Shown: one piece after another, positions 3,469 through 19,993 of the stretch
Layout: each line of letters opens with the position of its first letter
Position numbering within the stretch: the stretch's first letter is position 1
Virus record (IMG/VR): IMGVR_UViG_3300002835_000124
Length of the DNA stretch: 20,000 bases
Origin: an uncultured virus (IMG/VR IMGVR_UViG_3300002835_000124)
Taxonomy: Duplodnaviria > Heunggongvirae > Uroviricota > Caudoviricetes
Reading direction: 5' to 3' (one strand)
Notes under the pieces: model-generated
Told to the model about the DNA's origin: nothing
What the model saw: only the letters and a program-made list of their open reading frames with translations
Databases searched by the model: none
Program-made: the position numbers and the translations under genes

Positions 3469-4226
3469 TCTTTATATCCCCAAGTTTCATCATCTACTGT
3501 AAATTTGCGGGTACCCTGACGACCATCTAAATGATAAGAACGTTTAATACTACCTTCAGGATGATAGATCCAAAGTTTGTGTATTTCCCAGCCCTCTTGA
3601 CTAAATACATCGTATGGAGCAATATCATCTTGAATTGCCCCATGAAATGTATCTTCTATAAAAAATTTATCCTTGCATCTTGGAAGAACAATATCTTTAT
3701 AATATTTTTTTCTACTTAGGTGTGGTCTCTGACTCCATTGCATAGTTTTCATAAATCCATCTTCTAAACCAAACATAAGGTGTTCATGCTCTTTTGGTAT
3801 TTTTGATTCAAAATGAAAACGAATGGTATTTGCTTTATTATACTCAAACATATCCAAGCATTTATCCCAGTCTATTGCCACATCTGGGGTCAATGGGGCA
3901 TCTCCTTCAATGTAAAGCAATAGCGGTGTTTTAATTTCATTAATTGTTTGACGCATCATGTTAGTTTGATGGCTATGCTCTTTAAATATAAAAGGCAATA
4001 TGTTGTTATCCTCATGCAAGCATTTCCATAAAATACGATTTTTATATTCATCGTAATCTTTTTTACGGTTTTGTTGCTCCTCCCTGAGACCATCTATTTG
4101 CATAATAATTTCGTTGTCTGGAAAGTGCACACGAATATCGCTAATTGTTTGCTCTATCATCTTTGTGCTTGGGTGATCTGGAATTATGGAGGTAGCCATG
4201 ACAATTGTTATATCTCTTTTATGCAT
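3465..4226 (-). CDS. putative GT-A glycosyltransferase
   Basis: 253 aa; ITIVMATS start, LLYIEGD (DxD-like), WSQRPHL, late SYHLDGR; operon context. Confidence 0.6.
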   Translation of the reverse strand: MHKRDITIVMATSIIPDHPSTKMIEQTISDIRVHFPDNEIIMQIDGLREEQQNRKKDYDEYKNRILWKCLHEDNNILPFIFKEHSHQTNMMRQTINEIKTPLLLYIEGDAPLTPDVAIDWDKCLDMFEYNKANTIRFHFESKIPKEHEHLMFGLEDGFMKTMQWSQRPHLSRKKYYKDIVLPRCKDKFFIEDTFHGAIQDDIAPYDVFSQEGWEIHKLWIYHPEGSIKRSYHLDGRQGTRKFTVDDETWGYKE

Positions 4227-5073
4227 TTACTTGCCTCATTAACTCAATAAAAAGATCTCTTTTATATTTAATCCACCAACAAACAACTTGATGCATATCG
4301 GATGTGCAATTATTTAATAATTCAGGTAGCATTTCGGGAAACTGTTGCCAATTTTCAAAAGTTTTTATTGAGTGATTGCCATCAAATAAAAAATTAAAAA
4401 AGTCTGTGTTTTGCATTCTTGGGTCCAACTTATCTCCTATGGGCAAGCAAAGCATTTCAATTGCTTCATAGAATCTAAATGAATCAACAACCATTGCTCC
4501 GCTAGGGCAAGGAACAATCTTTGATAAAAACATTTTGTCATAGTATTGTTTTGGCTTTAATCCTTCTGCAAAACCAGTAGTTGGATTATAAAAAGAGTTT
4601 GGTATCTCAGGCATAACGGTTGCAAGTTCTTGCCTTCTTTGATGAGTTATCTGTCCTGAAAAAAATACATCATACGATTTATCTTGATACTCTGGTAAAT
4701 TATTTGATAAATGTTGAGGAACACCTAATGCTAATTTATTATATTGTGAATGTTTTCTGTGCGGGTATTGAATCCAAATATCAATATTATTATGCTCTAT
4801 CTTATCAACCTTAAAAGTGGCGCTTTCATCTCCAGTAATAAGTAAAACCACCCTACCTATCTTATTTAACTCTTCAGATATTTGATCTTCGTAATCTACA
4901 TTTTGAGGTCCAGGAATCACAACAAAGGCTCTATCTGTTTTAGGCAAAGTTGTTACCCTATCTGGTTTAATATTATTTTTATTAAAAAATTGTTTTAATA
5001 GACCGTAATCCCATTTATCAGCAGCACAGTCTTCTTGCTTAACTGAATAAAGATATGCTTTAAGATCGCTCAT
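4219..5073 (-). CDS. exostosin-like (GT47-type) glycosyltransferase
   Basis: Start MSDLKAY overlapping the FkbM stop; YDVFFSGQ..RR, KIVPCPSG, DSFRFYEAIEMLCLPI resemble the exostosin CPxG / RxxEA pattern. Confidence 0.65.
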   Translation of the reverse strand: MSDLKAYLYSVKQEDCAADKWDYGLLKQFFNKNNIKPDRVTTLPKTDRAFVVIPGPQNVDYEDQISEELNKIGRVVLLITGDESATFKVDKIEHNNIDIWIQYPHRKHSQYNKLALGVPQHLSNNLPEYQDKSYDVFFSGQITHQRRQELATVMPEIPNSFYNPTTGFAEGLKPKQYYDKMFLSKIVPCPSGAMVVDSFRFYEAIEMLCLPIGDKLDPRMQNTDFFNFLFDGNHSIKTFENWQQFPEMLPELLNNCTSDMHQVVCWWIKYKRDLFIELMRQVNA

Positions 5074-5773
5074 AAAATAAGTGTACCTCATGCTGATAGT
5101 CAAGCAAGGTTTCTTTATATCCAAGCCCCCACAACCAAAATCTTAAATCATATAAGTATTCATTCCATTGTTGCATCATAAATTCTGGATGACCAGATAA
5201 CCAGATCTTAGGCTTAAACTCCTTTAAAACGCCTTCTGCGCCCCTTAAAACACGTCCTTCGCTGCCTTCTACGTCTAAAGAAATTGCCGTAGGAGGCTTA
5301 ATCCCATGATCATATACACAGGAATCTATGGTAATTTGACCATAGGTATCTCCTTCAAGGTATAGTTCTTTAAATCCATGTGCTGCTTCAATTTCTAAAT
5401 TTGATTCTGGTGGAAACTCATTATAATAAATACGTGTAAGGTTATTGTTTTTGTCTGAAGCAAATCCAGGAATGCAAACTGTTGGATTTTTTAAATTATT
5501 TGCCTTCCAAATTAATGGATAGTGAGACCAAACCTTTGGATTAGGTTCAAATAAAACAACTTCTGATCCCCACATTTGACATAAGACAGGCATCTCTCCT
5601 TCTTCTGCACCAACATAATATACAACATCTCCAGATGAAATATTTTCTGACATATGCTTTAGCCTTGGTTTTTCCCAACCGTGTGGTTTATACCAATCAG
5701 GTCTGTTGGCACGATGTTCTGGAAGAAAGATTTCAAACTCTCCATTGATTAATGACTTTATCATTTCTGTCAT
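5060..5773 (-). CDS. FkbM-family SAM-dependent methyltransferase
   Basis: VVYYVGAEEG, VLFEPNP, ITIDS, ISLDVEGSEGRVLRGA. Confidence 0.8.
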   Translation of the reverse strand: MTEMIKSLINGEFEIFLPEHRANRPDWYKPHGWEKPRLKHMSENISSGDVVYYVGAEEGEMPVLCQMWGSEVVLFEPNPKVWSHYPLIWKANNLKNPTVCIPGFASDKNNNLTRIYYNEFPPESNLEIEAAHGFKELYLEGDTYGQITIDSCVYDHGIKPPTAISLDVEGSEGRVLRGAEGVLKEFKPKIWLSGHPEFMMQQWNEYLYDLRFWLWGLGYKETLLDYQHEVHLFYERS

Positions 5774-5785
5774 TTTATAAACATC

Positions 5786-6451
5786 CTATTCTTGGTATCT
5801 AACTTTTTTAATAAAACTAACATGGTTCTTATCATCTTCTTTTGGGCAGTATTTAAAATCTACATCTGGTAAGTTAAATGGAGTTGGATAAAGTTCCTCA
5901 ACACTGTGCCCACCTCCAGGATATTGGCCCCACTTATTGTAGAAATATTGATGCAATAGGTTGTCATTTGACCTTACTCCACCTAGTTTAATGCTATGAC
6001 CCATAATAGTATCTGAAACATCAAATAAAATCTTTTCCCATTTAACATTAGGCATTGCTTTTTTAATTCTAATACTATAATCTAAATCATCATATCCATA
6101 TGGTGTAAAGTTTTCATCCCATCCTCCAACAGTATCAATAACATCTTTTTTAAAAGCCATTAAATGCCAACCATAAAGTTGGAAGCCTTCAACAATTTGA
6201 GCATCAGTTTTTTCTAAATGCTCAATGATATCTAAGCCACCCTTATCACCAAACCTTATTGCTGCACTCATAATGATAAACCAATCAGCATTATCTTCGT
6301 AAAATTTTTTGATGCCAAGGTTATGACTAGCCATTATGCCTACATTATTAACTGTATTATCAATCTCTAAAATATTTTCTAATTTGCAATTAGACATAAA
6401 CTCATCACGAAACTCTTGCACACGAAATGGCAGACAGACTACATATTTCAT
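5786..6451 (-). CDS. GT2-family glycosyltransferase
   Basis: ATGA-coupled start MKYVVCLP; NVGIMASHNLG; VGGWDENFTPYGYDDLDYSIR. Confidence 0.8.
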   Translation of the reverse strand: MKYVVCLPFRVQEFRDEFMSNCKLENILEIDNTVNNVGIMASHNLGIKKFYEDNADWFIIMSAAIRFGDKGGLDIIEHLEKTDAQIVEGFQLYGWHLMAFKKDVIDTVGGWDENFTPYGYDDLDYSIRIKKAMPNVKWEKILFDVSDTIMGHSIKLGGVRSNDNLLHQYFYNKWGQYPGGGHSVEELYPTPFNLPDVDFKYCPKEDDKNHVSFIKKVRYQE

Positions 6452-7332
6452 TTCTGCAACCATTTCATTAGTGATACTTTAGGTATCCATCCAGTTAAAT
6501 CTTTAAACTTAGAATTAGATGCAAGAGTTTCTTGCACTTCCCCAATTCTTGACGGGATAAACTTAACATCATTTGAAATCATATTAGCAATATCAAGTAT
6601 AGAGTAGTTACTTCCATACCCAATGTTATATACTTCCCCAAATCCATTTTCAACTTCAGATGCAAGAATGTTTGCCTGTATTACGTCTGATATGTGAGTA
6701 AAATCTCTACGCTGAGATCCATCTCCAACTACTGTCAATGGTTTTGACTCATGGTATTGTTTTAAAAATAGTCCTATTACTGGTGCGTATTGACCTTTTA
6801 ATGGTTGTCTATCTCCATACACATTGAAGTATCTAAGGGATATTGTTTTTAATCCGTAAAGATTATAATAAACTCTTGCAAGGTTTTCACCAAAAACTTT
6901 AGCAGCAGAGTATGGAGTTAGTGGATCAGGGGATTGTGTTTCTTGGTTTGGAAGCAAAGCCTTTTTACCATAAGAAGAAGATGTGCTTGAATAGATTAGC
7001 CTATCAACCTTGTTAACCCTACAAAGTTCAAGAACATTGGCTGTTCCTACTGCGTTTGATTCAATAGATTTTTTTGGATTTAATATTGCTGGCTGTATTC
7101 TTGCATCAGATGCTACGTGAAATACGCAGTCAACATCTTTAAATAGTGGTGCAATTAGGTCATAATCACAAATGTCATGCTTATAATTTTGTGCTTTATC
7201 ATTCCAATAGAACTGCTCATGACATTCTGCAGACTCATCATCAATACAAATAACATCGTGACCAAGACTAATTAACTTATCAACAAGGTTTGATCCAATA
7301 AAACCAGCACCACCTGTAACTAAATATTTCAT
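6448..7332 (-). CDS. NAD-dependent NDP-sugar epimerase/dehydratase (extended SDR, GalE/WbpP-like)
   Basis: VTGGAGFIGS Rossmann motif, YSSTSSSYG, YSAAK catalytic YxxxK, LRYFNVYG, GDGSQRRDF. Confidence 0.95.
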   Translation of the reverse strand: MKYLVTGGAGFIGSNLVDKLISLGHDVICIDDESAECHEQFYWNDKAQNYKHDICDYDLIAPLFKDVDCVFHVASDARIQPAILNPKKSIESNAVGTANVLELCRVNKVDRLIYSSTSSSYGKKALLPNQETQSPDPLTPYSAAKVFGENLARVYYNLYGLKTISLRYFNVYGDRQPLKGQYAPVIGLFLKQYHESKPLTVVGDGSQRRDFTHISDVIQANILASEVENGFGEVYNIGYGSNYSILDIANMISNDVKFIPSRIGEVQETLASNSKFKDLTGWIPKVSLMKWLQK

Positions 7333-8288
7333 TTTATATTTAAAGTTTCTAAAATGCTAGCCCATCTACGAACATATGTGTGCTCTTTCTTTGTTCTCTC
7401 ATGTCCGTTAAGTCTGATTGCTTCTCTTGATACACCGTTTAACAAGTACTTATCTATTTTATTTTTTAGATCTTCAAGGTTGCCGTGTTCATAAAATATA
7501 ATTTCATTTTCATCTTTAAAGTATTCTTCAAGCCCTTTAATGCGAGGGTAAATGGTAAAACCACCACGACCAGTACTCTCAAACAACCTATCACTAGTGT
7601 AGTAAGGGTAGTTAAAATTAATGTTTAAACTATCACCTATTGCTATCTTGCTTCTTGCATAGATACGGTTTAAAGCATCTCCACGTACAGTTCCAGTGTC
7701 ACCGTCTCCACCAACATGTAAAAATCTTTTGCCGTATGTGTTTCTCAAAAAGTCTATTAATTCTGGACGGTATTTATGTTCACGATGATAACCTTTGCTG
7801 CCAACAAAGATAATATCATTCTCAAAATTATGTGGATCGTAATCTTGATGTAGATAACACTCTTTATCATACACACCAGCAGGCAGAAAGTGCCCCCTTA
7901 CCTGTGTATTTTCATTAAACCAATCACACATTAACTTATCTGTAGCAAAGAAGTGACCAATACTTGTGTAGAAGTCATCATTCTTTAAATCTTTTTCACG
8001 TTCAATCCCAAACCACAAATCTAAATGATAGGTCATAGTTGGTATGCCAGCAGCCTCTAATTCTTTTAATACATCTGTCATTGACCTAGACCCTGGTGTT
8101 TGCCATCTATGGGTATGCACCCAGATGAATAAGTCAGATTTCAATGCTTTCATTAATATTTCTGAACTGCCCGCTTTTTTCTCCTGCAATTTTTCAACGG
8201 TATGTCCAAGAGACTCTAGAGACTTAGCATGATGATTCTCACTACTATAAGGCACCTCAAAGTTGCCAAGAAAGACTATATTAGCCAT
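7329..8288 (-). CDS. GT-B glycosyltransferase (CgeB / Glyco_trans_1_2-like)
   Basis: DIIFVGS, IYARSKIAIG, YTSDRLFESTGRGGF, GHERTKKEHTYVRR. Confidence 0.8.
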   Translation of the reverse strand: MANIVFLGNFEVPYSSENHHAKSLESLGHTVEKLQEKKAGSSEILMKALKSDLFIWVHTHRWQTPGSRSMTDVLKELEAAGIPTMTYHLDLWFGIEREKDLKNDDFYTSIGHFFATDKLMCDWFNENTQVRGHFLPAGVYDKECYLHQDYDPHNFENDIIFVGSKGYHREHKYRPELIDFLRNTYGKRFLHVGGDGDTGTVRGDALNRIYARSKIAIGDSLNINFNYPYYTSDRLFESTGRGGFTIYPRIKGLEEYFKDENEIIFYEHGNLEDLKNKIDKYLLNGVSREAIRLNGHERTKKEHTYVRRWASILETLNIK

Positions 8289-8297
8289 AATATTTTT

Positions 8298-8990
8298 TCA
8301 TAATAAATTATTTTTAATTTCTTTTAAAATGCGTTTTTTATTTTTTACCATTAAATAATATTCTTCTAATGATCTATTCTTTACTCTTCTGAATTCTTTG
8401 GAGTTTTCAATTGCATAAAAAAAGTTTTGTATGTTTTCACTTATTTCATATTGTTTAAAAATAATTTTTTCTTTAGTATGAAATTTTATATATTGAAATA
8501 TTTCATTTTCTTCAATTAAAAATTCATCATGCTCTGGTTTTAAATAAAAAGCATATTCTACTTGTCTAAACCACTTGCCAATATCAATAGTCCCAGGAAT
8601 TATAGTACAACGCCTAGTTACATTGTTGTTTTCTAAAAACGGAGAAATACCAGCAGACATTAACAAAGATTTTTCTTCAGTAAAAAAAGAAAATCTTTGT
8701 AAAAAAGAAAATAGTTTGTCTTCACTTGAACGAACAGTAACATTGTTTTTAAAAAACCAATCGTCATAAAGTGGTGATGTCACAGAGCCATCGGGATTTA
8801 TCTTAAAATTATAATTGTATATAGACTTAATCCCAAAAGTATTCTGCATATAATCTTTTACTGCTGGGCACCAAACTAAACCATTTTTTTTATTTTTTGG
8901 ATCTTTTATAAATTCTTTATATATTGATTCGGGCTCCTTAGCCCTTAGCCATGGTTTTTCATTACAGGTCCAATAAACAGTTATAGCCAT
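8298..8990 (-). CDS. conserved phage protein, probable distant paralogue of 523..1239
   Basis: 230 aa; WCPAVKDYMQNTF and IIPGTIDIGKWFR correspond to CMPFIDSLTSGY and GIIDTDGW. Confidence 0.6.
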   Translation of the reverse strand: MAITVYWTCNEKPWLRAKEPESIYKEFIKDPKNKKNGLVWCPAVKDYMQNTFGIKSIYNYNFKINPDGSVTSPLYDDWFFKNNVTVRSSEDKLFSFLQRFSFFTEEKSLLMSAGISPFLENNNVTRRCTIIPGTIDIGKWFRQVEYAFYLKPEHDEFLIEENEIFQYIKFHTKEKIIFKQYEISENIQNFFYAIENSKEFRRVKNRSLEEYYLMVKNKKRILKEIKNNLL

Positions 8991-9299: not shown

Positions 9300-9320
9300 A
9301 TGTATATCATATCATGCGTG

Positions 9321-9391
9321 TAGGACTGGAAGGTAACGCTCCTTCTTCTCAGGATTAAAAGTCCTGAGCATCACTTTAATGCTTCAATCCC
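9321..9391 (-). tRNA. trnK: tRNA-Lys(UUU), atypical D- and T-loops
   Basis: GGGATTG/CAGTCCT acceptor, GCAT/ATGC D-stem, CAGGA-CTTTTAA-TCCTG anticodon arm, GAAGG-AGCGTTA-CCTTC T-arm. Confidence 0.75.
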
Positions 9392-9395
9392 CCAG

Positions 9396-9468
9396 TACCC
9401 ATAGTTGGATTTGAACCAACGCTTTGTGAATTTTAAGTCCACTGCCTCTACCGCTGGGCTACATGGGT
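9396..9468 (-). tRNA. trnL: tRNA-Leu(UAA), short variable loop
   Basis: ACCCATG/TATGGGT acceptor, GTGGA-CTTAAAA-TTCAC anticodon arm, GTTGG-TTCAAAT-CCAAC T-arm, 5-nt variable loop. Confidence 0.9.
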
Positions 9469-9471
9469 TTG

Positions 9472-9544
9472 CTGGTCTGGTAGGACTCGGACCTACGACT
9501 TGCGAATTAACAGTTCGCCACTCTACCAACTGAGTTACAGACCA
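9472..9544 (-). tRNA. trnN: tRNA-Asn(GUU)
   Basis: TGGTCTG/CAGACCA acceptor, GCGAA-CTGTTAA-TTCGC anticodon arm, T-loop TCCGAGT, discriminator G. Confidence 0.92.
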
Positions 9545-9548
9545 TTAG

Positions 9549-9622
9549 TACACCAGGTAGGACTTGAACCTACGATAACCGAATTATGAGTTCGGAGCCT
9601 TAACCAACTTGGCCACTGGTGT
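9549..9622 (-). tRNA. tRNA with CAU anticodon (probably Ile2; elongator Met not excluded)
   Basis: ACACCAG/CTGGTGT acceptor with C4:G69 and C5:G68; CCGAA-CTCATAA-TTCGG; paired 1:72 and no GGG/CCC stem, so not an initiator. Confidence 0.88.
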
Positions 9623-12913: not shown

Positions 12914-13141
12914 ATGGCAATAGATTACACAGGACTGCTAAGTGATGAGCAGAAAAAAAGCATCCTTGAGCAACGATTAACTCAATTTGCTGCTGAGGCT
13001 TATCAGCACGATATTAACAAGCAGGTAGCAACCGCTTCAAATAATGAAGAGGGTATCAAGCAAGCAACTGATGCATTAGCAATTCTTGAATCAGCAATGA
13101 ATATTCATCAAGAAGAATTGGCTAAGTTAACTTTAGCATAA
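12914..13141 (+). CDS. small helical protein, possible fibre partner/chaperone
   Basis: AAGGAG RBS; 75 aa, amphipathic helical pattern. Confidence 0.75.
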   Translation: MAIDYTGLLSDEQKKSILEQRLTQFAAEAYQHDINKQVATASNNEEGIKQATDALAILESAMNIHQEELAKLTLA

Positions 13142-13161: not shown

Positions 13162-13188
13162 CACCTGACCATGTGTATAAACTGGTCA
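13162..13188 (+). ncRNA. candidate H-type pseudoknot motif, copy A
   Basis: CAC-CT-GACCA-T-GTG-TATAAAC-TGGTC, followed by a T-tract. Confidence 0.65.
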
Positions 13189-13199
13189 TTTTTTAATAA

Positions 13200-14200
13200 A
13201 ATAATATAAAGTTAAGCCAAAAAATGGTTTTTAATTTCGGCGGCAAATAGGAGGTAACAAACCTTCCAATGCCCTAAAAGGGCAATAACGGTTAGTATCT
13301 TAAAATCGGCGGGTATAGAAAGAATACCGTAATACCCCTAGTACAATAACAAACCTTTCAAACCCTATAGCCTGATATCCCCATAGCCAGATATGCCAGA
13401 TAGCCAGAAAGTAAGGTTTGAACCTATGTGCGACTATCTGGTTTGATAATGAGAATATGCACAATATGGATCCAGGGCGATGGTTTGATACCCTGCAAAA
13501 ATAGGGTTTGAAGGCTTCTAAATGCCATCTGGAGAGGTTTGATAAGAAAAATAAATCTTACTGATATTTTTTATATTTGGTCTAGGTGGAGGAAAGTGGA
13601 GGATAGTGGGTGATTGAGCGATTTTATAGATGGCGTCGTAATCCTCTGGCGGCCAAACCTCCCATCCCCAAACCTTTCAAACCTTTCTATCCCGCATATG
13701 GGGCATGCATTATACCTCCAAAACCCTGGTTTGTCAAACCTTCATAGCCTAAAAACCCCCACAAAAATGCCCAGAAAATGTAGCAAAATCTTTTAAAACA
13801 CCAGCAAAAAATCTAGAAAGGTTTGATAACTATGGTAAAAGTTTTAAATAATTCGCAATTTAAATTCCCGCTTCGTAATGTCTAATAGTACTAGGACTTG
13901 GCGCCCCGCAGGGACGCAAAAACGGCGGGGATAAAAAGATATACCAATACTCCCAGTAGTATACAAACCATATCTTCTGGATATAAGGTTTGAAGGTTTG
14001 TCAAACTTTCTGGGATTTTTTGAAATTGGTTCTTAATGTCTTTTAGGAAAATAAGGTTTGGAAGGTTTGGTATGAATCTGGAAAATTCTACAGATTACGT
14101 AATGTCCCACGATCTGGGATTTTTTTGGAAAGGTTCTTAATGTTTTTTAGGAAAAAAGAATGTCCAATTTGGGTGGTTTGATATAGTTTGACCCGAGTGG
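13200..14200. repeat. non-coding, repeat-dense region (candidate origin or terminus-associated DNA)
   Basis: About 20 GGTTTG/CAAACC hexamers in both orientations; direct repeats 14009-14051 vs 14113-14155 and 13307-13355 vs 13923-13969. Confidence 0.65.
13269..13301. repeat. dispersed hairpin-containing repeat, copy 2
   Basis: ATGCCCTAAAAGGGCAATAACGGTTAGTATCTT. Confidence 0.75.
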
Positions 14201-14206
14201 GCAGGG

Positions 14207-14476
14207 CTATGCCTGGCTGCCAAGCAACTCGTCAAGACTTTCCCATTCTTTATCCTCAACACCAAGAGAGGCAATAAATAAATTATATGTTTCATCTATA
14301 TACACGGCAGATTGTAGGGTTGGCAAAACAATTTCATTCATTAGAAAATATGCCAATGGCAAACCTAGATCGTTATACTCTATAAAATCTTGCAAGTCCT
14401 CATCATCACGATAGTTCATCCACAACTCAGCAAGAATGCTTATCTTGTTGTCAAAAGTATTACCTGCCATTGCCAT
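14207..14476 (-). CDS. acidic hypothetical protein
   Basis: 89 aa; ILAELWMNYRDD..FIEYNDLGLPLAY. Confidence 0.8.
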   Translation of the reverse strand: MAMAGNTFDNKISILAELWMNYRDDEDLQDFIEYNDLGLPLAYFLMNEIVLPTLQSAVYIDETYNLFIASLGVEDKEWESLDELLGSQA

Positions 14477-14696
14477 AGTAAGCCCCTCTGTCTAATTGCT
14501 CAACTTCTTTATTATACTGCATGGCTTCTAATACTTCATTAGCCCTAGTATAAATAATATGGGGCGCACCCTTTGCTAAATAAAATCCAATGGCTTCTAA
14601 GTCAAGAGTAAAATCAGATAGCAGAGTAGTAATTCTGCCAGCAACCTTTTCCTCTTTACTTATTCCCAGCCTAATAGACCTACGCATAAATCCCAT
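14460..14696 (-). CDS. hypothetical protein
   Basis: 78 aa; leaderless promoter upstream. Confidence 0.75.
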   Translation of the reverse strand: MGFMRRSIRLGISKEEKVAGRITTLLSDFTLDLEAIGFYLAKGAPHIIYTRANEVLEAMQYNKEVEQLDRGAYYGNGR

Positions 14697-14702
14697 ACCC
14701 CA

Positions 14703-14731
14703 ATTCTATCAAAAAAGTGTGGGGAGAGCAA
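14703..14731 (-). promoter_or_regulatory. leaderless promoter overlapping a terminator stem
   Basis: TTGCTC-17-(TGA)TAGAAT-6nt-ATG(14696). Confidence 0.65.
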
Positions 14732-14755
14732 GCCCACCACAAACCCGCTCTCCCC
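14711..14755 (-). terminator. putative intrinsic terminator
   Basis: GGGGAGAGC/GCTCTCCCC 9-bp stem with 17-nt loop, then ACAC-TTTTTT on minus strand. Confidence 0.5.
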
Positions 14756-14787
14756 CTATATTAGCAAGAGGTGACCCTACCTCTGCC

Positions 14788-15156
14788 TTATGAGGCCCCC
14801 ACGGTAGAAAGGATACCGCTGGGCGAATGATAGTTAACAAAACTGTCAATGTCATGAGAGCCTGTCTCATCAGTGATAGTGTTATTAGTTAAGTCAATTA
14901 ATATTGGATGGTCCGCAAAACCTAGGTCATTAGGATTGCAAGCATATAGGCCAAACCCTGTTTCATCAAGAATAGAATCCTTTAGTAGATGGCTCACGGC
15001 CATGCGGGTATAGTATTCTGTATCCCCTTTACGTACCACTGCATGCTGCAGGGCCTGAGCAAGGTCTGAATGCATAGAGTCTTCACCCCAATGACTGTAC
15101 AGCGCTACTGCTAGGTCCTCTGATTGTTTAAATACAAATGTACAACGTGCTCCCAT
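14788..15156 (-). CDS. conserved phage hypothetical protein (MGxR...YxHW type)
   Basis: MGARCTFVF...LYSHWGED; TAATG coupling. Confidence 0.8.
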   Translation of the reverse strand: MGARCTFVFKQSEDLAVALYSHWGEDSMHSDLAQALQHAVVRKGDTEYYTRMAVSHLLKDSILDETGFGLYACNPNDLGFADHPILIDLTNNTITDETGSHDIDSFVNYHSPSGILSTVGAS

Positions 15157-15314
15157 TACTCTTCCTCATTCTTTTCTACTAGGTTAGGGACGATGGATAA
15201 TTGGTTTGATACCTCGTTAAAAATAACATCTTCGTCTTCAGTGTCAGTCTCATACACAAAGTTCATGTAATCGCCTGTTGGTTCAAAAATTACTTCTATT
15301 TCCCATTTAGCCAT
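15156..15314 (-). CDS. 52-aa acidic hypothetical protein
   Basis: MAKWEIEVIFEPTGDYMNFVYETDTEDEDVIFNE...; TAATG coupling at both ends. Confidence 0.75.
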   Translation of the reverse strand: MAKWEIEVIFEPTGDYMNFVYETDTEDEDVIFNEVSNQLSIVPNLVEKNEEE

Positions 15315-15505
15315 TACAGGGTCTCCTCTGATTCTACTGATTCAACTAGGTCCCACGCAATTCCTGAACCATCTGCACCTGTTGCGGCATAGTTATCTAG
15401 GAATTCGCTTTCGGCAATGTTCATAGCGTCAATCTCATCTTCTGCGTCTTCAATACGAACAGACTTGGTGATTTGTCCTATAACTTTGATATCATATGTT
15501 GGCAT
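15314..15505 (-). CDS. small acidic protein, DpnD/PcfM-like pattern
   Basis: MPTYDIKV...IEDAEDEIDAMNIA; paralogue of 16366..16551. Confidence 0.7.
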   Translation of the reverse strand: MPTYDIKVIGQITKSVRIEDAEDEIDAMNIAESEFLDNYAATGADGSGIAWDLVESVESEETL

Positions 15506-15941
15506 TGTTTTGGGTCTCCAATCCTACTAGTGTAAGTTCTTCAATTGTAGCGCATTGTGGGCATTTTTGCAAATCTTCCTCATCAAAGGCATCTCTGATA
15601 GTATTATTAGGGTCTTCAAATTCAGCACCACAGTTTTCACAGTAGAACCAGTTATGACTAATCAATACCTGTATAGTTGTATCAGGTGGGCAAGGAACCT
15701 CAGTGATAAAGTATCCTATTCTATTTACGATGTGCCATCCGTTCCAGATGTAACTACCACCGTCGTCACCATCACCATACATCCAGATATAGGCAGGGTC
15801 TTGTTCTTTTACAAAGGCCACTTCCTCATCGTAGGTCTCAAACATATGCCCATCAAAACTAGCATTCTCATCTAGATGATTCTTAATAGGCTTATAAGTG
15901 TCAAACCACTCATCTTCCGTCATCTCAATAAATTTATCCAT
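15492..15941 (-). CDS. acidic protein with C-terminal zinc ribbon
   Basis: 149 aa; GWHIVNRIGYFITEVP; CENC...CPQC. Confidence 0.8.
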   Translation of the reverse strand: MDKFIEMTEDEWFDTYKPIKNHLDENASFDGHMFETYDEEVAFVKEQDPAYIWMYGDGDDGGSYIWNGWHIVNRIGYFITEVPCPPDTTIQVLISHNWFYCENCGAEFEDPNNTIRDAFDEEDLQKCPQCATIEELTLVGLETQNNANI

Positions 15942-16212
15942 TTGTCTTAGTCCTATCTGATATGGCGAATGCTAACTCATAGGTTAATTGATATACAGTT
16001 GAATAGGCGTCTAGCATGCCTTCCCAATATTTACGTTCCATTGAATCCATGGCGTCATCATAGTCTGTATCCTCTTCTATCTTTTGGTAGCGAAGATACT
16101 CTGTCTCAGCATTTAGCATGAGGTTCTTTAGTTCACCATGTAGGATATCAGTTCCTGATTCCCCTAGGTCTACTAGTTTCTGTAGTCGTGGTGCTAGTGT
16201 CATATTGTTCAT
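15934..16212 (-). CDS. hypothetical protein
   Basis: 92 aa; DSMERKYWEG; overlaps both neighbours. Confidence 0.75.
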   Translation of the reverse strand: MNNMTLAPRLQKLVDLGESGTDILHGELKNLMLNAETEYLRYQKIEEDTDYDDAMDSMERKYWEGMLDAYSTVYQLTYELAFAISDRTKTNG

Positions 16213-16373
16213 TCTTTAATCATACCCTCTGCCACTGACAAAAGGTGGCGGGTGTTATAAATCTCAGCCTCTTTAGTTCTATAGAAATGATGAGCATTAA
16301 CATAGTCAATCTTCTCAAGGTCTTGCATAAGACTTATCTCATGAATCTTCATATACTCAATGAAACTATTCAT
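16209..16373 (-). CDS. hypothetical protein
   Basis: MNSFIEYMKIH...TRHLLSVA; start overlaps upstream stop. Confidence 0.65.
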   Translation of the reverse strand: MNSFIEYMKIHEISLMQDLEKIDYVNAHHFYRTKEAEIYNTRHLLSVAEGMIKE

Positions 16374-16551
16374 CTGATTCATCTTCATCCTCTTCTTCAG
16401 GTTCAGGTTGTTCATCTACATCAATAGAATAAACTTCACTTGAATAGCCGTAGTCTTCGTAGTGCCAGCCTTGCTCTTCAGCCTCAGCCTCGTTCTCTGC
16501 TTCTACCTCGTAGTTATATTCAACGATTACTTTTACATCATATGTGGGCAT
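16366..16551 (-). CDS. very acidic small protein, DpnD/PcfM-like pattern
   Basis: AAAGGA RBS; MPTYDVKVIVEYNYEVEAENEAEAEE. Confidence 0.75.
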   Translation of the reverse strand: MPTYDVKVIVEYNYEVEAENEAEAEEQGWHYEDYGYSSEVYSIDVDEQPEPEEEDEDESDE

Positions 16552-16580
16552 TTTGGGATTTCCTTTTTTTGGTCTTAATA

Positions 16581-16811
16581 TTAATTATAGGGGTTGGAGT
16601 TGATTTTTACAACTTCTTTTGATGTGACTTCCCTCACACTGTTCGCAATGGCAGGGGATGTACCAACATTAATTATATTAGGAGATCCACAAGAACACCA
16701 CCCTCTCCAGGATTTAAGTTTTATCAAGGTAGTAATCTCCATCAAAGCATCACAGTCATTACATACGTAATCATACTTAGTCCAGTTATTATCCATAGAA
16801 TGTGTTCTCAT
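16581..16811 (-). CDS. zinc-ribbon hypothetical protein
   Basis: YVCNDCD...WCSCGS; start could be 16796. Confidence 0.65.
   Translation of the reverse strand: MRTHSMDNNWTKYDYVCNDCDALMEITTLIKLKSWRGWCSCGSPNIINVGTSPAIANSVREVTSKEVVKINSNPYN
16584..16612 (-). promoter_or_regulatory. sigma70/SigA-type promoter
   Basis: TTGTAA-17-TATAAT. Confidence 0.6.
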
Positions 16812-16965
16812 CTATATACCCTTCTGCTAGTAGGCCCTCAAAGAAGTCCCATACTATTAGTAATTGTTTATAGTTTTGCTCATCCCCCTGATTTTTGGCG
16901 GTATCAATAGCCCAAGTTAAACTATCACCAAATGCTTGTATATCCTTATATGTATAACCTAGCAT
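16789..16965 (-). CDS. 58-aa hypothetical protein
   Basis: TAATG-coupled start MLGYTYKDI...DFFEGLLAEGY. Confidence 0.7.
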   Translation of the reverse strand: MLGYTYKDIQAFGDSLTWAIDTAKNQGDEQNYKQLLIVWDFFEGLLAEGYIDENTFYG

Positions 16966-17126
16966 TACTCTCCCCAATATTTTAGAATAGTGTTGAGGGT
17001 ATTGTGTATATAGCAATCACAATCTTCTCCCCCCATATTATCCATGAAATCAATATGAGAGAAGTTGTCCTCATAGATTTGCTCTACGAGTTGGGCTATG
17101 GTTTTTTCATTGGTTTGTGTGGTCAT
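16965..17126 (-). CDS. 53-aa hypothetical protein
   Basis: MTTQTNEKTIAQLVEQIYEDNFSH...GGEDCDCYIHNTL...; leaderless promoter; coupled to next ORF. Confidence 0.7.
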   Translation of the reverse strand: MTTQTNEKTIAQLVEQIYEDNFSHIDFMDNMGGEDCDCYIHNTLNTILKYWGE

Positions 17127-17132
17127 GTATTA

Positions 17133-17161
17133 ATTATCCTACAAACTGGGAAAAAAGTCAA
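17133..17161 (-). promoter_or_regulatory. leaderless promoter
   Basis: TTGACT-17-GATAAT-6nt-ATG(17126). Confidence 0.7.
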
Positions 17162-17240
17162 ACATCCGTAATGAGAAAATGGGAAAAATATCATTCCAAC
17201 GTAATAAGATTATAACAAAAATGTTACACTCGGGCACCTG

Positions 17241-17314
17241 CGATCCCAACGGGACTTGAACCCGTAGCCTTTACCGTGACAGGGTAACGATCTAACCAAT
17301 TGATCTATGGGACC
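17241..17314 (-). tRNA. trnD: tRNA-Asp(GUC)
   Basis: GGTCCCA/TGGGATC acceptor, GATC/GATC D-stem, TTACC-CTGTCAC-GGTAA anticodon arm, ACGGG-TTCAAGT-CCCGT T-arm, G73. Confidence 0.95.
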
Positions 17315-17318
17315 AGCG

Positions 17319-17346
17319 GAGCAGTTTGAAATCATGCTCAGGATTT
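17319..17346 (-). ncRNA. candidate H-type pseudoknot motif, copy B
   Basis: AAATC-CT-GAGCA-T-GATTT-CAAAC-TGCTC. Confidence 0.7.
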
Positions 17347-17352
17347 TATTTA

Positions 17353-18369
17353 CTAAACTAGTTGTAGCGTATTACGAACAACAGTTAGTAAGCGATTTTT
17401 TTCTGCATTGATAGCAGGGTCAAATCCAGAAGCAGAAGCAAGAATACTTTCATTGCTACCACCACGAGCAGAACGATACCAGTCAAGACGCTCAGTAAGT
17501 GCATTGAACGCACCCCACGCATTACCAGCAATCATTCCGTTATATTCTCCAGTGTAAATGTCATTGATAACATCTACCTTGTTTTCCCATTTCTTTACAG
17601 CGCCCTTAGTATCTTTATCTGGCTTAGGGTAAGCAGCAAGAATAATGTCATTGAAATCTTTTGCTGAGATTTCTTTTGCAATCATAGCATGTGCCATCTT
17701 ATCAAATTCGTCCATGTAAGCATTGGCAAGACCTAGTGTCTGACGAGCAATAGCCACTTTACCATTTGCAGTTTGAGTATGACGGATTTTGAAAGATTGC
17801 TTGACGCCATCTTTTTTCTTAGTACGATTTAACGCAACATTAAGAGTATTAGCACACACAACACGAACAGGTGTTATGCTTGCTTGAATTGCGATTGAGC
17901 CATCATGAGATGTGTTGATGAGTAAATAAGTCTTTACAACATCTGCCACACCATTAGGGTCTAGCACAGTTTCACGCTCTAATGCAAGAGAGCCAAATAC
18001 TTGACGACCACCCTTTAGAGAGCCAGCAGTTTCCCAACGACCACCGCCATCAAGAATGTTATCACCAAATGAAAATAAATCTTCATTCTGCAATACATGG
18101 TAACGCTCACCAACTACACCCAAAATATCAGTCTGGGTTTTGTCAGTAGGATTTGTACGCACTACATATTGATATTCTTTATCACTAGATAAGTGAGATG
18201 GAATTGGCATATCCTCAAGACGAACATTCCAATTATTAAGATTAGCAGCAACTAACATTTCGCTAGTTGTTTTTTCCTCAGTAAACACAGTGCCAAGACC
18301 ATGCCACGCAGGTTCACGCAATGACGCAAAACTTGCTACGCCATTTTGAGTTTCTAACTCATGAGCCAT
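17353..18369 (-). CDS. DUF932-family phage/plasmid-like protein (TIGR03299 type)
   Basis: MAHELE, REPAWHGLG, ETAGSLKGGRQVF, NTSHDGS, TPVRVVCANTL, IRHT, AWGAFNALTE. Confidence 0.92.
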   Translation of the reverse strand: MAHELETQNGVASFASLREPAWHGLGTVFTEEKTTSEMLVAANLNNWNVRLEDMPIPSHLSSDKEYQYVVRTNPTDKTQTDILGVVGERYHVLQNEDLFSFGDNILDGGGRWETAGSLKGGRQVFGSLALERETVLDPNGVADVVKTYLLINTSHDGSIAIQASITPVRVVCANTLNVALNRTKKKDGVKQSFKIRHTQTANGKVAIARQTLGLANAYMDEFDKMAHAMIAKEISAKDFNDIILAAYPKPDKDTKGAVKKWENKVDVINDIYTGEYNGMIAGNAWGAFNALTERLDWYRSARGGSNESILASASGFDPAINAEKNRLLTVVRNTLQLV

Positions 18370-18395
18370 TTTTATCCTTTCGGTTGTTTTAATTA

Positions 18396-18424
18396 AGTTT
18401 AGCAGTCATGGCTGACAATGTCAA
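18396..18424 (-). promoter_or_regulatory. sigma70/SigA-type promoter with TTGTCAG spacer motif
   Basis: TTGACA-TTGTCAGCCATGACTGC(17)-TAAACT. Confidence 0.75.
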
Positions 18425-18507
18425 CTAGGATTAGGGAAAATGGTTTAATCTTCTTAATTAGGATAAATCGGACATTTCAGGCCCCCCGAGTTTTTTAAAT
18501 AGAGGTG

Positions 18508-18535
18508 GGGCCTTTTTAAATCATGCCCAGGATCT
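18508..18535 (-). ncRNA. candidate H-type pseudoknot motif, copy C
   Basis: AGATC-CT-GGGCA-T-GATTT-AAAAA-GGCCC. Confidence 0.6.
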
Positions 18536-18556
18536 TTTGATAGCCCCCTATCAAAT

Positions 18557-19036
18557 TTAGTAGTGGTCCTCTAATGAAACTTCATCTACATTTAAGTCTG
18601 CGTCATAGTCATATGAACTTAACTCAGCCTCAATTGAAACATTGCTTAAATCAAAGTCAGCAATTTCTGACATTGGGACGCTGATTGTTCCGCTGAATGA
18701 AACTGTTCCCTGTACTTCAATTTCCTTGACTGGATTAACACCAAAGAGTTCGCATAGCGCTACAAGAACTTCTTCTTTAGAATAGTTAGGGTCGTACCAT
18801 TCTACAATACTATCTTCAAGTTGACTCACTGTCCCCTGCAGATTACGCAATAGGTCTTCTTTAGCACGAGAACTGTGTAGGTCCCATTCAAGTTCTGTTA
18901 CCTTGGATGTTAAATAAGTTGGCTCTTCAGGGGCAGCATATGTGCCAGCAATAGCCTTATACGTTACGAGAAGGTTTGGGTTGTACGGTACTTCTAGTTT
19001 ATCAATTGTTACGGCGTCATTAATATTAGTTGACAT
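18557..19036 (-). CDS. acidic hypothetical protein
   Basis: 159 aa; AAGGAAGAGG upstream; consensus promoter. Confidence 0.8.
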   Translation of the reverse strand: MSTNINDAVTIDKLEVPYNPNLLVTYKAIAGTYAAPEEPTYLTSKVTELEWDLHSSRAKEDLLRNLQGTVSQLEDSIVEWYDPNYSKEEVLVALCELFGVNPVKEIEVQGTVSFSGTISVPMSEIADFDLSNVSIEAELSSYDYDADLNVDEVSLEDHY

Positions 19037-19071
19037 TGTGGGGCCTCTTCCTTGTTAGTTGGTTTATATTA

Positions 19072-19101
19072 ATTATATTACAGGGTACTGACAAATGTCA
19101 A
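19072..19101 (-). promoter_or_regulatory. consensus sigma70/SigA promoter with TTGTCAG spacer motif
   Basis: TTGACA-TTTGTCAGTACCCTGTAA(18)-TATAAT. Confidence 0.85.
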
Positions 19102-19599
19102 TTACCAAGATGATTGATAGTAGAATGAGAGATTATCAAATTCAGGTAGGGCAAGGACACGCTCTAGTTGAGCAATAGTGCTCTTTAGATCATTCCAATA
19201 CCATTCATCAATATCTGTTCCACCAAAGAAAAATCCTTCTCTTGGTGGCAATAAGTTTGGGTCTTTAGTTTCTAAGGAGTGATTGCATATAGCAAGAAGT
19301 TCTATTAGTTTATCTTGTGGAACATAGTACTCTCCGCAATTATCCTCGCCACCTTGAACATTTGTAACGAACCAGTTGTGTATCTGATTAGCCTTGCGCC
19401 AGTAGGCACATGTAACTTCTACGGTTGCTCCATACATATCTGTAGCGACGTCTGTAAGTTGAGTTAATTCCATGAGGTCATTGAATTGTGGATAGACGGC
19501 TTCAGGTGAGTTATAAGTTAATTCATCATTAGCCTGTAGTGTGTGCCAATTAACTTTGGCTAAGTGCTTTCTTGCGTTGAGATACATATCTAATCCCAT
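19102..19599 (-). CDS. conserved phage hypothetical protein (MGLDMYL...YWRKANQIH type)
   Basis: AAGGAAG RBS; MGLDMYL, YWRKANQIHNWFV, LPPREGFFFG, FYYQSSW. Confidence 0.85.
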   Translation of the reverse strand: MGLDMYLNARKHLAKVNWHTLQANDELTYNSPEAVYPQFNDLMELTQLTDVATDMYGATVEVTCAYWRKANQIHNWFVTNVQGGEDNCGEYYVPQDKLIELLAICNHSLETKDPNLLPPREGFFFGGTDIDEWYWNDLKSTIAQLERVLALPEFDNLSFYYQSSW

Positions 19600-19633
19600 G
19601 GGGGCTTCCTTCTTTCTTTGTGGTATTAATATA

Positions 19634-19662
19634 ATTCTAACACCAAGAACTGACAAATACAA
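19634..19662 (-). promoter_or_regulatory. promoter with TTGTCAG spacer motif
   Basis: TTGTAT-TTGTCAGTTCTTGGTGT(17)-TAGAAT. Confidence 0.7.
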
Positions 19663-19745
19663 TTGGGAATCTTAAATGTCTCACATAATGAGATGTGATT
19701 TAGATCACGTTGCCTCGGGCCCGCTTTGCGGGGGAATTAAAAAGT

Positions 19746-19774
19746 GAGCAGTTTAGAACTCATACTCAGGAGTC
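19746..19774 (-). ncRNA. candidate H-type pseudoknot motif, copy D
   Basis: GACTC-CT-GAGTA-T-GAGTT-CTAAAC-TGCTC. Confidence 0.7.
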
Positions 19775-19822: not shown

Positions 19823-19993
19823 TTATTTAGTTGTGCTTACCATAGCAAGACGACGAGAGCCGTTTGCCAACTGTAGCGATACTCTAGTTAGTTTAGAGTT
19901 GATAGGTGAGAACTTTACAATTCTACCTGTGATACCAGTTTTGCTTGTGGTGAATAAATCACCAAGTTGGTATGTGTATCCGCCTAGTGTCAT
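19823..19993 (-). CDS. 56-aa basic, SH3/KOW-like beta protein
   Basis: MTLGGYTYQLGDLFTTSKTGITGRIVKFSPINSKLTRVSLQLANGSRRLAMVSTTK. Confidence 0.7.
   Translation of the reverse strand: MTLGGYTYQLGDLFTTSKTGITGRIVKFSPINSKLTRVSLQLANGSRRLAMVSTTK

What the first reader, a model, noticed from the sequence alone, without database searches (positions are those of the whole stretch)
13162..19774. Four-copy covarying RNA pseudoknot placed just after stop codons
Seen: copies at 13162-13188(+), 17319-17346(-), 18508-18535(-) and 19746-19774(-) share the layout S1-CU-S2-U-S1'-(N)AAA(C/A)-S2'. Stem 1 varies as CAC/GUG, AAAUC/GAUUU, AGAUC/GAUUU, GACUC/GAGUU. Stem 2 varies as GACCA/UGGUC, GAGCA/UGCUC, GGGC/GCCC, GAGUA/UGCUC. 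The sequence changes while pairing is kept, including G-U pairs, and the loop residues stay nearly fixed. Each copy is on the sense strand 6-48 nt after the stop of an unrelated gene, and the orientation flips with the gene. Established: compact H-type pseudoknots with a short loop 1 and an A-rich loop 3 form base triples and A-minor contacts. Inference: a phage-wide 3'-end RNA element, for example a 3'-5' exonuclease block, a processing or termination signal, a protein/ligand-binding module, or a type III antitoxin-like decoy. I do not recognise it as a named family.
Basis: partly seen in the sequence, partly recalled or inferred. Interest (0 to 1): 0.85.

Follow-up and report, generated by a model that had tools for sequence, protein, structure and literature searches.

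The report
Stop-codon-proximal RNA pseudoknot of mobile elements
A tiny, strongly conserved RNA knot sits just after the ends of genes in this phage and in phages and other mobile DNA of many bacterial groups, often right in front of RNA-cutting sites, and it matches no catalogued RNA family.

Summary
The four copies are real, at the stated coordinates, on the sense strand after stop codons. They form a ~27-nt H-type pseudoknot: S1(3-5 bp)-CU-GAGYA-H-S1'-(N)nAAAC-UGCUC. In 145 distinct copies from relatives, 97.9% of cells pair and 7 of 8 pairs show compensatory changes. No Rfam 15 family matches.

It is not phage-wide. Five near-complete related genomes of 104-114 kb carry 5-6 copies each, mostly in one 5-10 kb block. 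The family is far wider than this phage. The core pattern with covarying S1 occurs in prophage- or ICE-like DNA of many phyla and in many unrelated viral contigs.

It starts a median 8 nt after a stop codon. It often lies 0-13 nt before an RNA-processing site: tRNA 5' ends, type III hammerheads, twister-like ribozymes. About 15% are followed by a U-rich run.

Best reading (about 40%): a 3'-end cap of the upstream cistron, left at the new 3' end after processing or termination, that blocks 3'-to-5' decay. Function is inferred, not shown. Rivals are a translational insulator, a protein or ligand site, a terminator, or a ribozyme.

The parts
13162..13187 (+). Pseudoknot copy 1. S1 13162-13164 pairs with 13173-13175; L1 CU; S2 13167-13171 pairs with 13183-13187. 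A U run at 13189-13194 follows.
   Evidence: Sequence. Model hit of 34.8 bits, E 3.8e-8.
17319..17346 (-). Pseudoknot copy 2: AAAUC-CU-GAGCA-U-GAUUU-CAAAC-UGCUC.
   Evidence: Sequence. Model hit of 48.9 bits. 6 nt after the TAG stop and 4 nt before the tRNA.
18508..18535 (-). Pseudoknot copy 3, with S2 GGGC/GCCC.
   Evidence: Sequence. Model hit of 39.1 bits.
19746..19774 (-). Pseudoknot copy 4, followed by ACUUUUU.
   Evidence: Sequence. Model hit of 46.8 bits.
17240..17314 (-). tRNA-Asp (GTC), starting 4 nt after copy 2. There is no room for a promoter in between, so transcription must read through the pseudoknot.
   Evidence: ARAGORN. Rfam tRNA, 68.5 bits.
17353..18369 (-). DUF932-family gene whose stop codon precedes copy 2.
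   Evidence: Pfam PF06067, E 1.4e-49. phrog_1221.
18557..19036 (-). 159-aa gene of no known family whose stop codon precedes copy 3.
   Evidence: ORF list. No Pfam or PHROG hit.
19823..19993 (-). 56-aa ORF whose stop codon precedes copy 4.
   Evidence: ORF list.
12914..13141 (+). 75-aa ORF whose stop codon precedes copy 1. It is the last + strand gene before the leftward gene block.
   Evidence: ORF lists.
18396..18424 (-). Sigma-70-like promoter (TTGACA-17-TAAACT with TG) between copy 3 and the DUF932 start. Copy 3 therefore lies at the end of the upstream unit, not in the DUF932 leader.
   Evidence: Consensus scan. Sequence.
19628..19656 (-). Sigma-70-like promoter (TTGTCA-17-TATATT) downstream of copy 4.
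   Evidence: Consensus scan. Sequence.

Best explanation
The element is a compact H-type RNA pseudoknot that belongs to the 3' end of the upstream cistron. It folds just outside the reach of the ribosome that terminates at the stop codon. The transcript is then cut or ended a few bases downstream: by RNase P at a tRNA, by a hammerhead or twister ribozyme, by termination at a U run, or (inferred) by a host endonuclease in the A/U-rich stretch that follows. The pseudoknot is left at the new 3' end with only a short tail, and there it blocks 3'-to-5' exonucleases. Each small early, anti-defence or structural gene thus becomes a self-contained, stabilised mRNA unit, independent of the host.

Shown here: the fold (by covariation), the strand, the position relative to stop codons, and the adjacency to processing sites. 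Inferred: the exonuclease block and the stabilising effect.
For: 1. The structure is real and lies on the RNA sense strand. Both stems covary. At the S2 pair in columns 12-29 of alignment A3, U-G wobble occurs in 26 of 145 copies; on the other strand these would be mismatches. All 300 listed model hits lie on the gene strand; 11 weaker hits were not listed.

2. It is tied to the upstream gene end. In 146 unique viral-contig contexts, 121 had an upstream ORF end, and the stop-to-pseudoknot distance had a median of 8 nt with an interquartile range of 6-14. In this phage's relatives the median is 17 nt from the stop against 104 nt to the next start.

3. It sits immediately upstream of RNA cleavage sites.
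- A tRNA starts 3-9 nt after it in 42 unique contexts in relatives and in one Eggerthellaceae MAG.
- A tRNA (Asp, Arg, Ser or Gly) starts within 15 nt in 16 of 150 contexts in a viral-contig sample.
- Both type III hammerheads in L154 directly follow a pseudoknot.
- A twister-P1-like match starts 3 nt after one in L229. The two other twister-like matches there follow a variant pseudoknot.
- 25 viral contigs hold the pseudoknot plus a hammerhead core within 5-32 nt. Of these, 17 pass a type III descriptor, 15 of them with the cut 5-13 nt after the pseudoknot.

4. Copy 1 ends a + strand gene block, has no clear gene after it, and is followed by a U run.

5. A T-rich run follows in 23 of 150 contexts. 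I estimate roughly 5% by chance; that figure is my own and comes from no tool.

6. Hammerheads flanking single genes, ardA included, are documented in prophages (PMC3088659, passages read). The pseudoknot shares this niche: upstream genes include ArdA (2), DUF7249 (8), DUF3768 (2) and DUF2958 (1) among 56 scanned.
Against: - No RNA end mapping, half-life or nuclease data exist. The function is inference from position.
- 109 of 150 viral contexts have no recognisable processing site or U run after the pseudoknot. Many are followed by a Shine-Dalgarno sequence and start codon about 20 nt later (61 of 149), so a 3' end there needs an unproven endonuclease cut.
- The nearest-neighbour stability of each stem is marginal. 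A plain G+C-rich hairpin would seem a simpler block.
- The strong sequence conservation of S2 and the loops across phyla hints at a specific partner, which a pure roadblock does not require.
- In L229 one pseudoknot is followed about 10 nt later by a canonical terminator hairpin, which makes a cap redundant there.
- Adjacency to ribozymes could simply reflect compact intergenic regions.
Confidence: 0.4

Rival explanations
1. Translational insulator. The pseudoknot stands at the mRNA entry of the ribosome that sits on the stop codon. It blocks post-termination sliding, scanning or coupling. It also shields the fold of the next element (ribozyme, tRNA, next ribosome-binding site) from ribosome traffic and from upstream sequence.
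For: The spacing from the stop codon is tight: median 8 nt, 5th percentile 4 nt. This is the distance at which a structure meets the ribosome entry site (established knowledge of frameshift and readthrough spacers, recalled). Structured RNAs that must fold correctly come directly after it.
Against: In this phage's relatives the distance is looser: median 17 nt, and up to 48 nt in the window. An unstructured spacer or any hairpin would insulate as well, so the conserved sequence stays unexplained. Copy 1 has nothing downstream to insulate.
Confidence: 0.18
2. Binding site for a conserved partner, either a protein of the host or element or a small ligand. This would make it an operator or riboswitch-like switch that sets the fate of the transcript at cistron boundaries.
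For: Conservation of L1 (CU), S2 (GAGYA/UGCUC) and L3 (AAAC) is at riboswitch level across phyla, while S1 varies freely. The architecture and size resemble small ligand-binding pseudoknots (recalled). An A/U-rich, poorly structured stretch follows, as in the T4 gene 32 operator (the operator is recalled and is mentioned in PMC10690425, passages read).
Against: The gene contexts are heterogeneous, with no metabolic theme. There are several copies per genome. No shared protein was found between the window and two unrelated arrays (only about 23 kb compared). L2 is a single base, which leaves little room for a pocket (inference).
Confidence: 0.15
3. Transcription terminator or attenuator. S2 acts as the terminator hairpin and the pseudoknot stabilises it. 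Alternatively it is an RNA polymerase-modifying (put-like) antiterminator.
For: A U-rich run directly follows in copies 1 and 4, in 23 of 150 viral contexts and in 19-20 of 100 genome contexts. In the window, copies 3 and 4 lie upstream of the next promoter. Streptococcus phage A25 has a canonical terminator at the position (minor head gene to scaffold gene) where Lactobacillus phages LL-H and P7.1 have the pseudoknot.
Against: Most copies have no U run. Copies that lie 0-9 nt before tRNAs and ribozymes must be read through for those to be made. The phage also uses a canonical 16-bp terminator elsewhere, at 14755-14721. A polymerase-specific contact would not carry over to archaeal hosts, if the Methanobrevibacter MAG hits are genuine.
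Confidence: 0.1
4. A processing signal in its own right: a very small new self-cleaving ribozyme, or a tRNA-acceptor-like mimic cut by RNase P.
For: It shares the genomic niche of hammerhead and twister ribozymes that flank single genes. It works across very different hosts, as a host-independent or RNase P-dependent element would.
Against: At 27 nt it is far smaller than any known self-cleaver (recalled). It has no conserved flanking dinucleotide. It is often paired with a ribozyme or tRNA that already provides the cut. No CCA-like tail follows.
Confidence: 0.08

Closest known systems
Self-cleaving ribozymes (hammerhead, twister) that flank single genes in prophages (Perreault et al. 2011, PMC3088659; passages read)
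   Same: Same niche: the sense strand between small phage or ICE genes, ardA included, in arrays. The pseudoknot is physically adjacent to them.
   Different: No catalytic core, half the size, and no Rfam ribozyme match at the motif itself. It lies on the upstream side of the cut.
Intrinsic terminators and 3' stabiliser hairpins of bacterial and phage mRNAs
   Same: They sit right after stop codons. A subset of the pseudoknots has a U run. A canonical terminator occupies the same gene junction in phage A25.
   Different: It is a pseudoknot rather than a G+C-rich hairpin. Its stems are weak. Its sequence is conserved across phyla. It must be read through before tRNAs and ribozymes.
Compact luteovirus-type frameshift pseudoknots
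   Same: The layout as recalled: about 28 nt, short loop 1, a single junction base and an A-rich loop 3 over a 5-bp stem 1. The spacing to the decoding site is similar, about 6-8 nt.
   Different: There is no consistent frame extension past the stop in any frame, all three stop codons are used, and copy 2 is followed by a tRNA.
preQ1-I riboswitch aptamer
   Same: A very small H-type pseudoknot with an A-rich tail (recalled).
   Different: No match to any Rfam family, RF00522 included, at E up to 10. It is multi-copy, lies after genes, and no queuosine genes were seen among the neighbouring ORFs scanned.
Exonuclease-resistant RNAs (flavivirus xrRNA) and triple-helix 3' end protectors (ENE)
   Same: It would work like these if the best explanation holds: a compact knotted fold that stops a processive exonuclease.
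   Different: Opposite polarity to xrRNA (3'-to-5' rather than 5'-to-3'), much smaller, and no sequence relation. Resistance was not tested here.
Type III antitoxin RNAs (ToxI-like)
   Same: Short pseudoknotted RNA units in phage-related contexts (recalled).
   Different: The copies are not tandem but separated by genes. No ToxN-like gene appeared among the window ORFs scanned.

Membership tests
Any Rfam 15 family | A covariance-model match at the motif | tested here: not met
   Whole window at E<=5: only tRNAs and chance hits. A 61-nt stretch around copy 2 at E<=10: only an 11.8-bit FtrB hit. Ten bacterial loci at E<=10: nothing at the motif.
H-type pseudoknot (structural class) | Two stems, with the 3' strand of stem 2 pairing into the loop of stem 1, both supported by covariation | tested here: met
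   all 3 S1 pairs and 4 of 5 S2 pairs have changes on both sides, 97.9% of cells are paired, and 0 of 500 shuffles reach the observed values. S2 was not part of the search model's structure.
Intrinsic (Rho-independent) terminator | A G+C-rich hairpin followed directly by a U tract | tested here: not met
   A U-rich run follows in only 23 of 150 contexts and 19-20 of 100. The stems are A/U-rich and weak. The feature is met for a subset, window copies 1 and 4 included.
Programmed -1 frameshift or stop-codon readthrough stimulator | An extended ORF in the -1 or 0 frame continuing through and past the structure | tested here: not met
   In 28 cases with a stop 4-11 nt upstream, the extensions are short and inconsistent in all frames, with stops TAG 12, TAA 9, TGA 7. 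Copy 2 runs into a tRNA.
Riboswitch (for example preQ1-I) | A 5' leader position before genes of one metabolic theme | tested here: not met
   It lies after stop codons. The neighbouring genes are heterogeneous.
Riboswitch (for example preQ1-I) | Specific ligand binding | not testable with these tools
   Needs in-line probing or ITC.
Self-cleaving ribozyme | Site-specific self-scission | not testable with these tools
   No catalytic-core match. Needs an in vitro cleavage assay.
Type III antitoxin RNA | Tandem repeats next to a ToxN-type endoribonuclease gene | tested here: not met
   The copies are 1.2-4 kb apart. No such gene appeared in the PHROG and Pfam scans of window ORFs.
Exonuclease-resistant RNA | Stalling of a purified exonuclease at the structure | not testable with these tools
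   Only positional evidence is available.

The most novel reading that the evidence does not exclude
The pseudoknot is a new, host-independent class of 3'-to-5' exonuclease-resistant RNA, a prokaryotic-virus counterpart of xrRNA. Together with self-cleaving ribozymes or RNase P sites it forms a modular 'gene + cap + cutter' mRNA cassette. Phages, ICEs and plasmids of many phyla would use this cassette to express early, anti-defence and structural genes. That would also give the long-unexplained phage ribozymes a concrete job.
Probability: 0.3. Interest if true: 0.88.

Novelty: new variant of a known kind. Interest (0 to 1): 0.78.

Why it matters
If the family is new, it is one of the smallest and most widely spread structured RNA motifs of phages and mobile elements. 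About 19 of its 27 bases are conserved from actinophage-like freshwater phages to prophages in isolates of Lactobacillaceae, Calothrix and Brucella.

Its fixed place, just after the stop codon and just before hammerhead, twister or tRNA cut sites, offers a testable answer to an open question: why do phages flank single genes with ribozymes? The proposed answer is that they make individually capped mRNAs.

A 27-nt host-independent stabiliser or insulator would also be a useful part for synthetic biology, placed next to ribozyme insulators.

Tried and rejected
- Recoding (frameshift or readthrough): rejected. There is no consistent extension in any frame, all three stop codons occur, and a tRNA follows copy 2.
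- Known RNA family: eight Rfam searches found none at the motif.
- DNA-level promoter or UP element: rejected. Both stems covary, and the U-G wobbles occur on the sense strand. A strong promoter within 90 nt downstream is present in only 11 of 266 contexts, against 3 of 266 in the upstream control. It is regular at just one homologous junction, where the order is pseudoknot, GNRA hairpin, then consensus promoter (11 loci).
- General hairpin or terminator after the motif: not found. The 45 nt downstream are less structured than upstream coding sequence in the viral sample, -5.0 against -7.8 kcal/mol.
- A protein shared by motif-bearing loci: BLASTP of window ORFs against L229, L230 and L231 found only the phage relative L230. 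The sample is too small to exclude one.
- A 14.2-bit model hit antisense to tRNA-Lys (9357-9392), and a resemblance of the S1 loop to an anticodon loop with S2' as codon: noted but not supported by any test.
- Swap test at the junction upstream of DUF932: 42 of 49 distinct regions have the motif under a strict scan, 5 more have variant forms by eye, and 2 have none. That is too few losses to learn what replaces it.
- Literature: six full-text searches found no description. Of the supplementary files of the 10,006-candidate phage RNA catalogue (PMC10690425), four could not be read, so a prior unnamed listing cannot be excluded.
- The whole genome of the window is not held, and megablast against cultured phages found nothing.

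Full report
**Observation.** Each reads S1-CU-S2-N-S1'-(N)nAAAC-S2' on the strand of the gene that ends just upstream.

| Copy | Coordinates | Distance after stop | Notes |
|---|---|---|---|
| 1 | 13162-13187 (+) | 20 nt, after a 75-aa ORF | S1 only 3 bp; a U run follows |
| 2 | 17346-17319 (-) | 6 nt, after the TAG of a DUF932 gene | 4 nt before tRNA-Asp |
| 3 | 18535-18508 (-) | 21 nt | |
| 4 | 19774-19746 (-) | 48 nt | |

A 13-mer pattern derived from the copies hits 4 times against 0.35 expected; this pattern is post hoc. A covariance model built from relatives scores the four at 34.8-48.9 bits, and the next window hit at 14.2 bits. Nested folding alone is unremarkable, at -4.6 to -9 kcal/mol with z-scores of -2.4 to +0.1. 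The case for the structure therefore rests on covariation.

**Covariation.**
- The DUF932 protein has 508 relatives in IMG/VR, and I kept 80 loci.
- A regular expression found 111 copies in these loci, all on the gene strand.
- I aligned 66 of 67 distinct sequences. The one dropped, L058:6686, was a structureless chance match. From these I built a model that has only S1 as structure.
- The model found 311 matches at E<=0.1 in the 80 loci plus the window. All 300 listed matches are on the gene strand.
- An alignment of 145 distinct cores gives 97.9% paired cells against 83.5% when shuffled.
- Seven of 8 pairs have changes on both sides, and the covariation score is 0.396 against 0.120, reached by 0 of 500 shuffles.
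- Sliding the 3' partners leaves 27-39% paired.
- S1 uses AU, GC, UA and CG at one position (63, 31, 29 and 20 copies).
- S2 was not in the model's structure, yet it still shows compensatory variants: GGCCA/UGGCC, GAUCA/UGAUC, UAGCA/UGCUA and AAGCA/UGCUU.
- The 26 U-G wobbles at one S2 pair point to the sense strand as the folding strand.

**Distribution.** The element is not phage-wide.
- The window has four copies, all in its right third.
- Five related viral genomes of 104-114 kb (CheckV completeness 96-100%) have 5-6 matches each. Most lie in one 5-10 kb block around the DUF932 gene, with one to two elsewhere.
- The nearest cultured relatives of the DUF932 protein are Streptomyces and other actinophages, at about 53% identity. 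An actinobacterial host is therefore likely, though this is inferred.

The family itself is very wide.
- Of 122 matches there, 101 have at least 3 consecutive S1 pairs. The two pairs next to the fixed C-G pair are Watson-Crick in 100 and 97 of 116 unique copies, with many pair types.
- Carriers include isolates of Lacticaseibacillus, Ligilactobacillus, Clostridium, Calothrix and Brucella. They also include MAGs of Saccharibacteria, Aminicenantes, Anaerolineae, Omnitrophota, Bacteroidota and one Methanobrevibacter. MAG binning of phage contigs is uncertain.
- A scan of IMG/VR also hit its limit, at 139 loci. All 150 unique copies there have at least 3 S1 pairs.
- No Rfam 15 family matches the motif.

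**Context.**

*Neighbouring genes are typical of phages and ICEs.*
- Upstream ORFs, 56 scanned: DUF7249 (8), ArdA (2), DUF3768 (2), DUF2958, YjcQ and a minor capsid protein.
- Downstream ORFs, 75 scanned: head scaffolding proteins (8) and an ArdC-like anti-restriction protein.

*The motif is anchored to the upstream stop codon.*
- In the viral sample the median distance is 8 nt, with an interquartile range of 6-14 (121 of 146 contexts had an upstream ORF end).
- In phage LL-H the stop codon lies inside loop 3.
- In this phage's relatives the medians are 17 nt from the stop and 104 nt to the next start.
- There is no recoding signature.

*What follows the motif varies.*
- A tRNA starts 3-9 nt later in 42 unique contexts in relatives and in one Eggerthellaceae MAG. 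A tRNA follows within 15 nt in 16 of 150 viral contexts.
- Type III hammerheads follow directly. In L154 both hammerheads are preceded by the motif.
- Twenty-five viral contigs have the motif plus a hammerhead core within 5-32 nt. Of these, 17 pass my type III descriptor, 15 of them with a predicted cut 5-13 nt after the motif (the other two placements look wrong by eye). Only 6 of the 20 scanned reach E<=0.01 with the Rfam model.
- Twister-P1-like matches (36-41 bits, below the gathering score) start 2-3 nt after the motif or after a variant of it in L229.
- A T-rich run follows in 23 of 150 contexts.
- Otherwise an A/U-rich, G-poor, poorly structured stretch follows, often with a Shine-Dalgarno sequence and start codon about 20 nt on.
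- In the window, copies 3 and 4 lie upstream of the next sigma-70-like promoter. Copy 1 ends a gene block.

**Interpretation.** After RNase P, hammerhead or twister cleavage, or after termination at the U run, the pseudoknot would sit at the 3' end of the upstream RNA with a tail of a few bases. That is the geometry expected of a block to 3'-to-5' exonucleases.

It also matches the published picture of ribozymes that cut prophage transcripts into single-gene units (PMC3088659, passages read). Such cuts would otherwise leave unprotected 3' ends. I therefore favour a 3' cap of the upstream cistron, at about 40%.

Arguments against this reading:
- There are no experimental data.
- 109 of 150 contexts have no recognisable end-forming element.
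- The stems are weak.
- The conservation is at riboswitch level, which suggests a specific partner.
- One copy is followed by a canonical terminator.

Rivals:

| Reading | Weight |
|---|---|
| Translational insulator at the stop codon | 0.18 |
| Protein or ligand site | 0.15 |
| Terminator or antiterminator; full termination is contradicted by the tRNA and ribozyme composites | 0.10 |
| Ribozyme or RNase P signal | 0.08 |

**Novelty.** There is no Rfam match. Six literature searches found no description. The large phage RNA catalogue PMC10690425 could not be checked in its supplements. I rate the element a new variant of a known kind: a cis-acting structured RNA at cistron boundaries. It could turn out to be a new class if exonuclease resistance or another specific activity is shown.

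Noticed in passing
L229:3047-3077 and L229 around 3633-3663, each 2 nt before a twister-like match; also L229 around 6533-6565: A variant pseudoknot (S1 CCCAG, L1 UUA, S2 GAGCU, no junction base, L3 UUACCAAA, S2' AGCUC) takes the place of the canonical motif in front of twister-like ribozymes. The family may therefore be broader than the pattern searched.
   Followed up: partly
window 13200-14200: About 950 nt without a convincing ORF lie between the convergent gene blocks. The stretch holds a perfect consensus promoter (TTGACA-17-TATAAT) on the minus strand at 13737-13709. It may encode a small RNA or a very small gene.
   Followed up: no
window 14721-14755 (-): A canonical intrinsic terminator (16-bp stem with 8 G-C pairs, then a T run) lies 33 nt after the stop of ORF 14788-15156. 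The phage therefore also uses ordinary terminators in the same gene block.
   Followed up: no
window 9320-9622 (-): A cluster of four tRNA genes (Met, Asn, Leu, Lys) separated by 2-3 nt. No pseudoknot lies upstream. A weak model hit of 14.2 bits lies antisense to tRNA-Lys.
   Followed up: partly
window 2431-8990 (-): A block of glycosyltransferases, a nucleotide-sugar epimerase and a methyltransferase in a phage genome. It suggests modification of a surface polysaccharide or of DNA.
   Followed up: no
window 19072-19101 (-): A perfect consensus sigma-70 promoter overlaps the end of ORF 19102-19662, just upstream of the 159-aa gene. Single early genes seem to have their own strong promoters.
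   Followed up: no
L230 (a 5.2-kb contig of a bacterial MAG): This contig encodes a DUF932 protein 78% identical to the window's and carries the same motif. It is a relative of this phage binned into a bacterial genome, so MAG-based host labels for the motif need care.
   Followed up: partly
L018, L020, L022, L028, L044, L047, L051, L057, L070, L079, L080 around 2180-2300: At one conserved junction the pseudoknot abuts a CCC-GNRA-GGG hairpin, followed at once by a consensus promoter and a short leader. This forms a fixed three-part boundary module.
   Followed up: partly
L233 (Lactobacillus phage LL-H) 1416-1445; L234 (Streptococcus phage A25) 1330-1360: At the junction between the minor-head and scaffold genes, LL-H has the pseudoknot with the stop codon inside loop 3. 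A25 has a canonical hairpin and T-run terminator at the same junction.
   Followed up: partly
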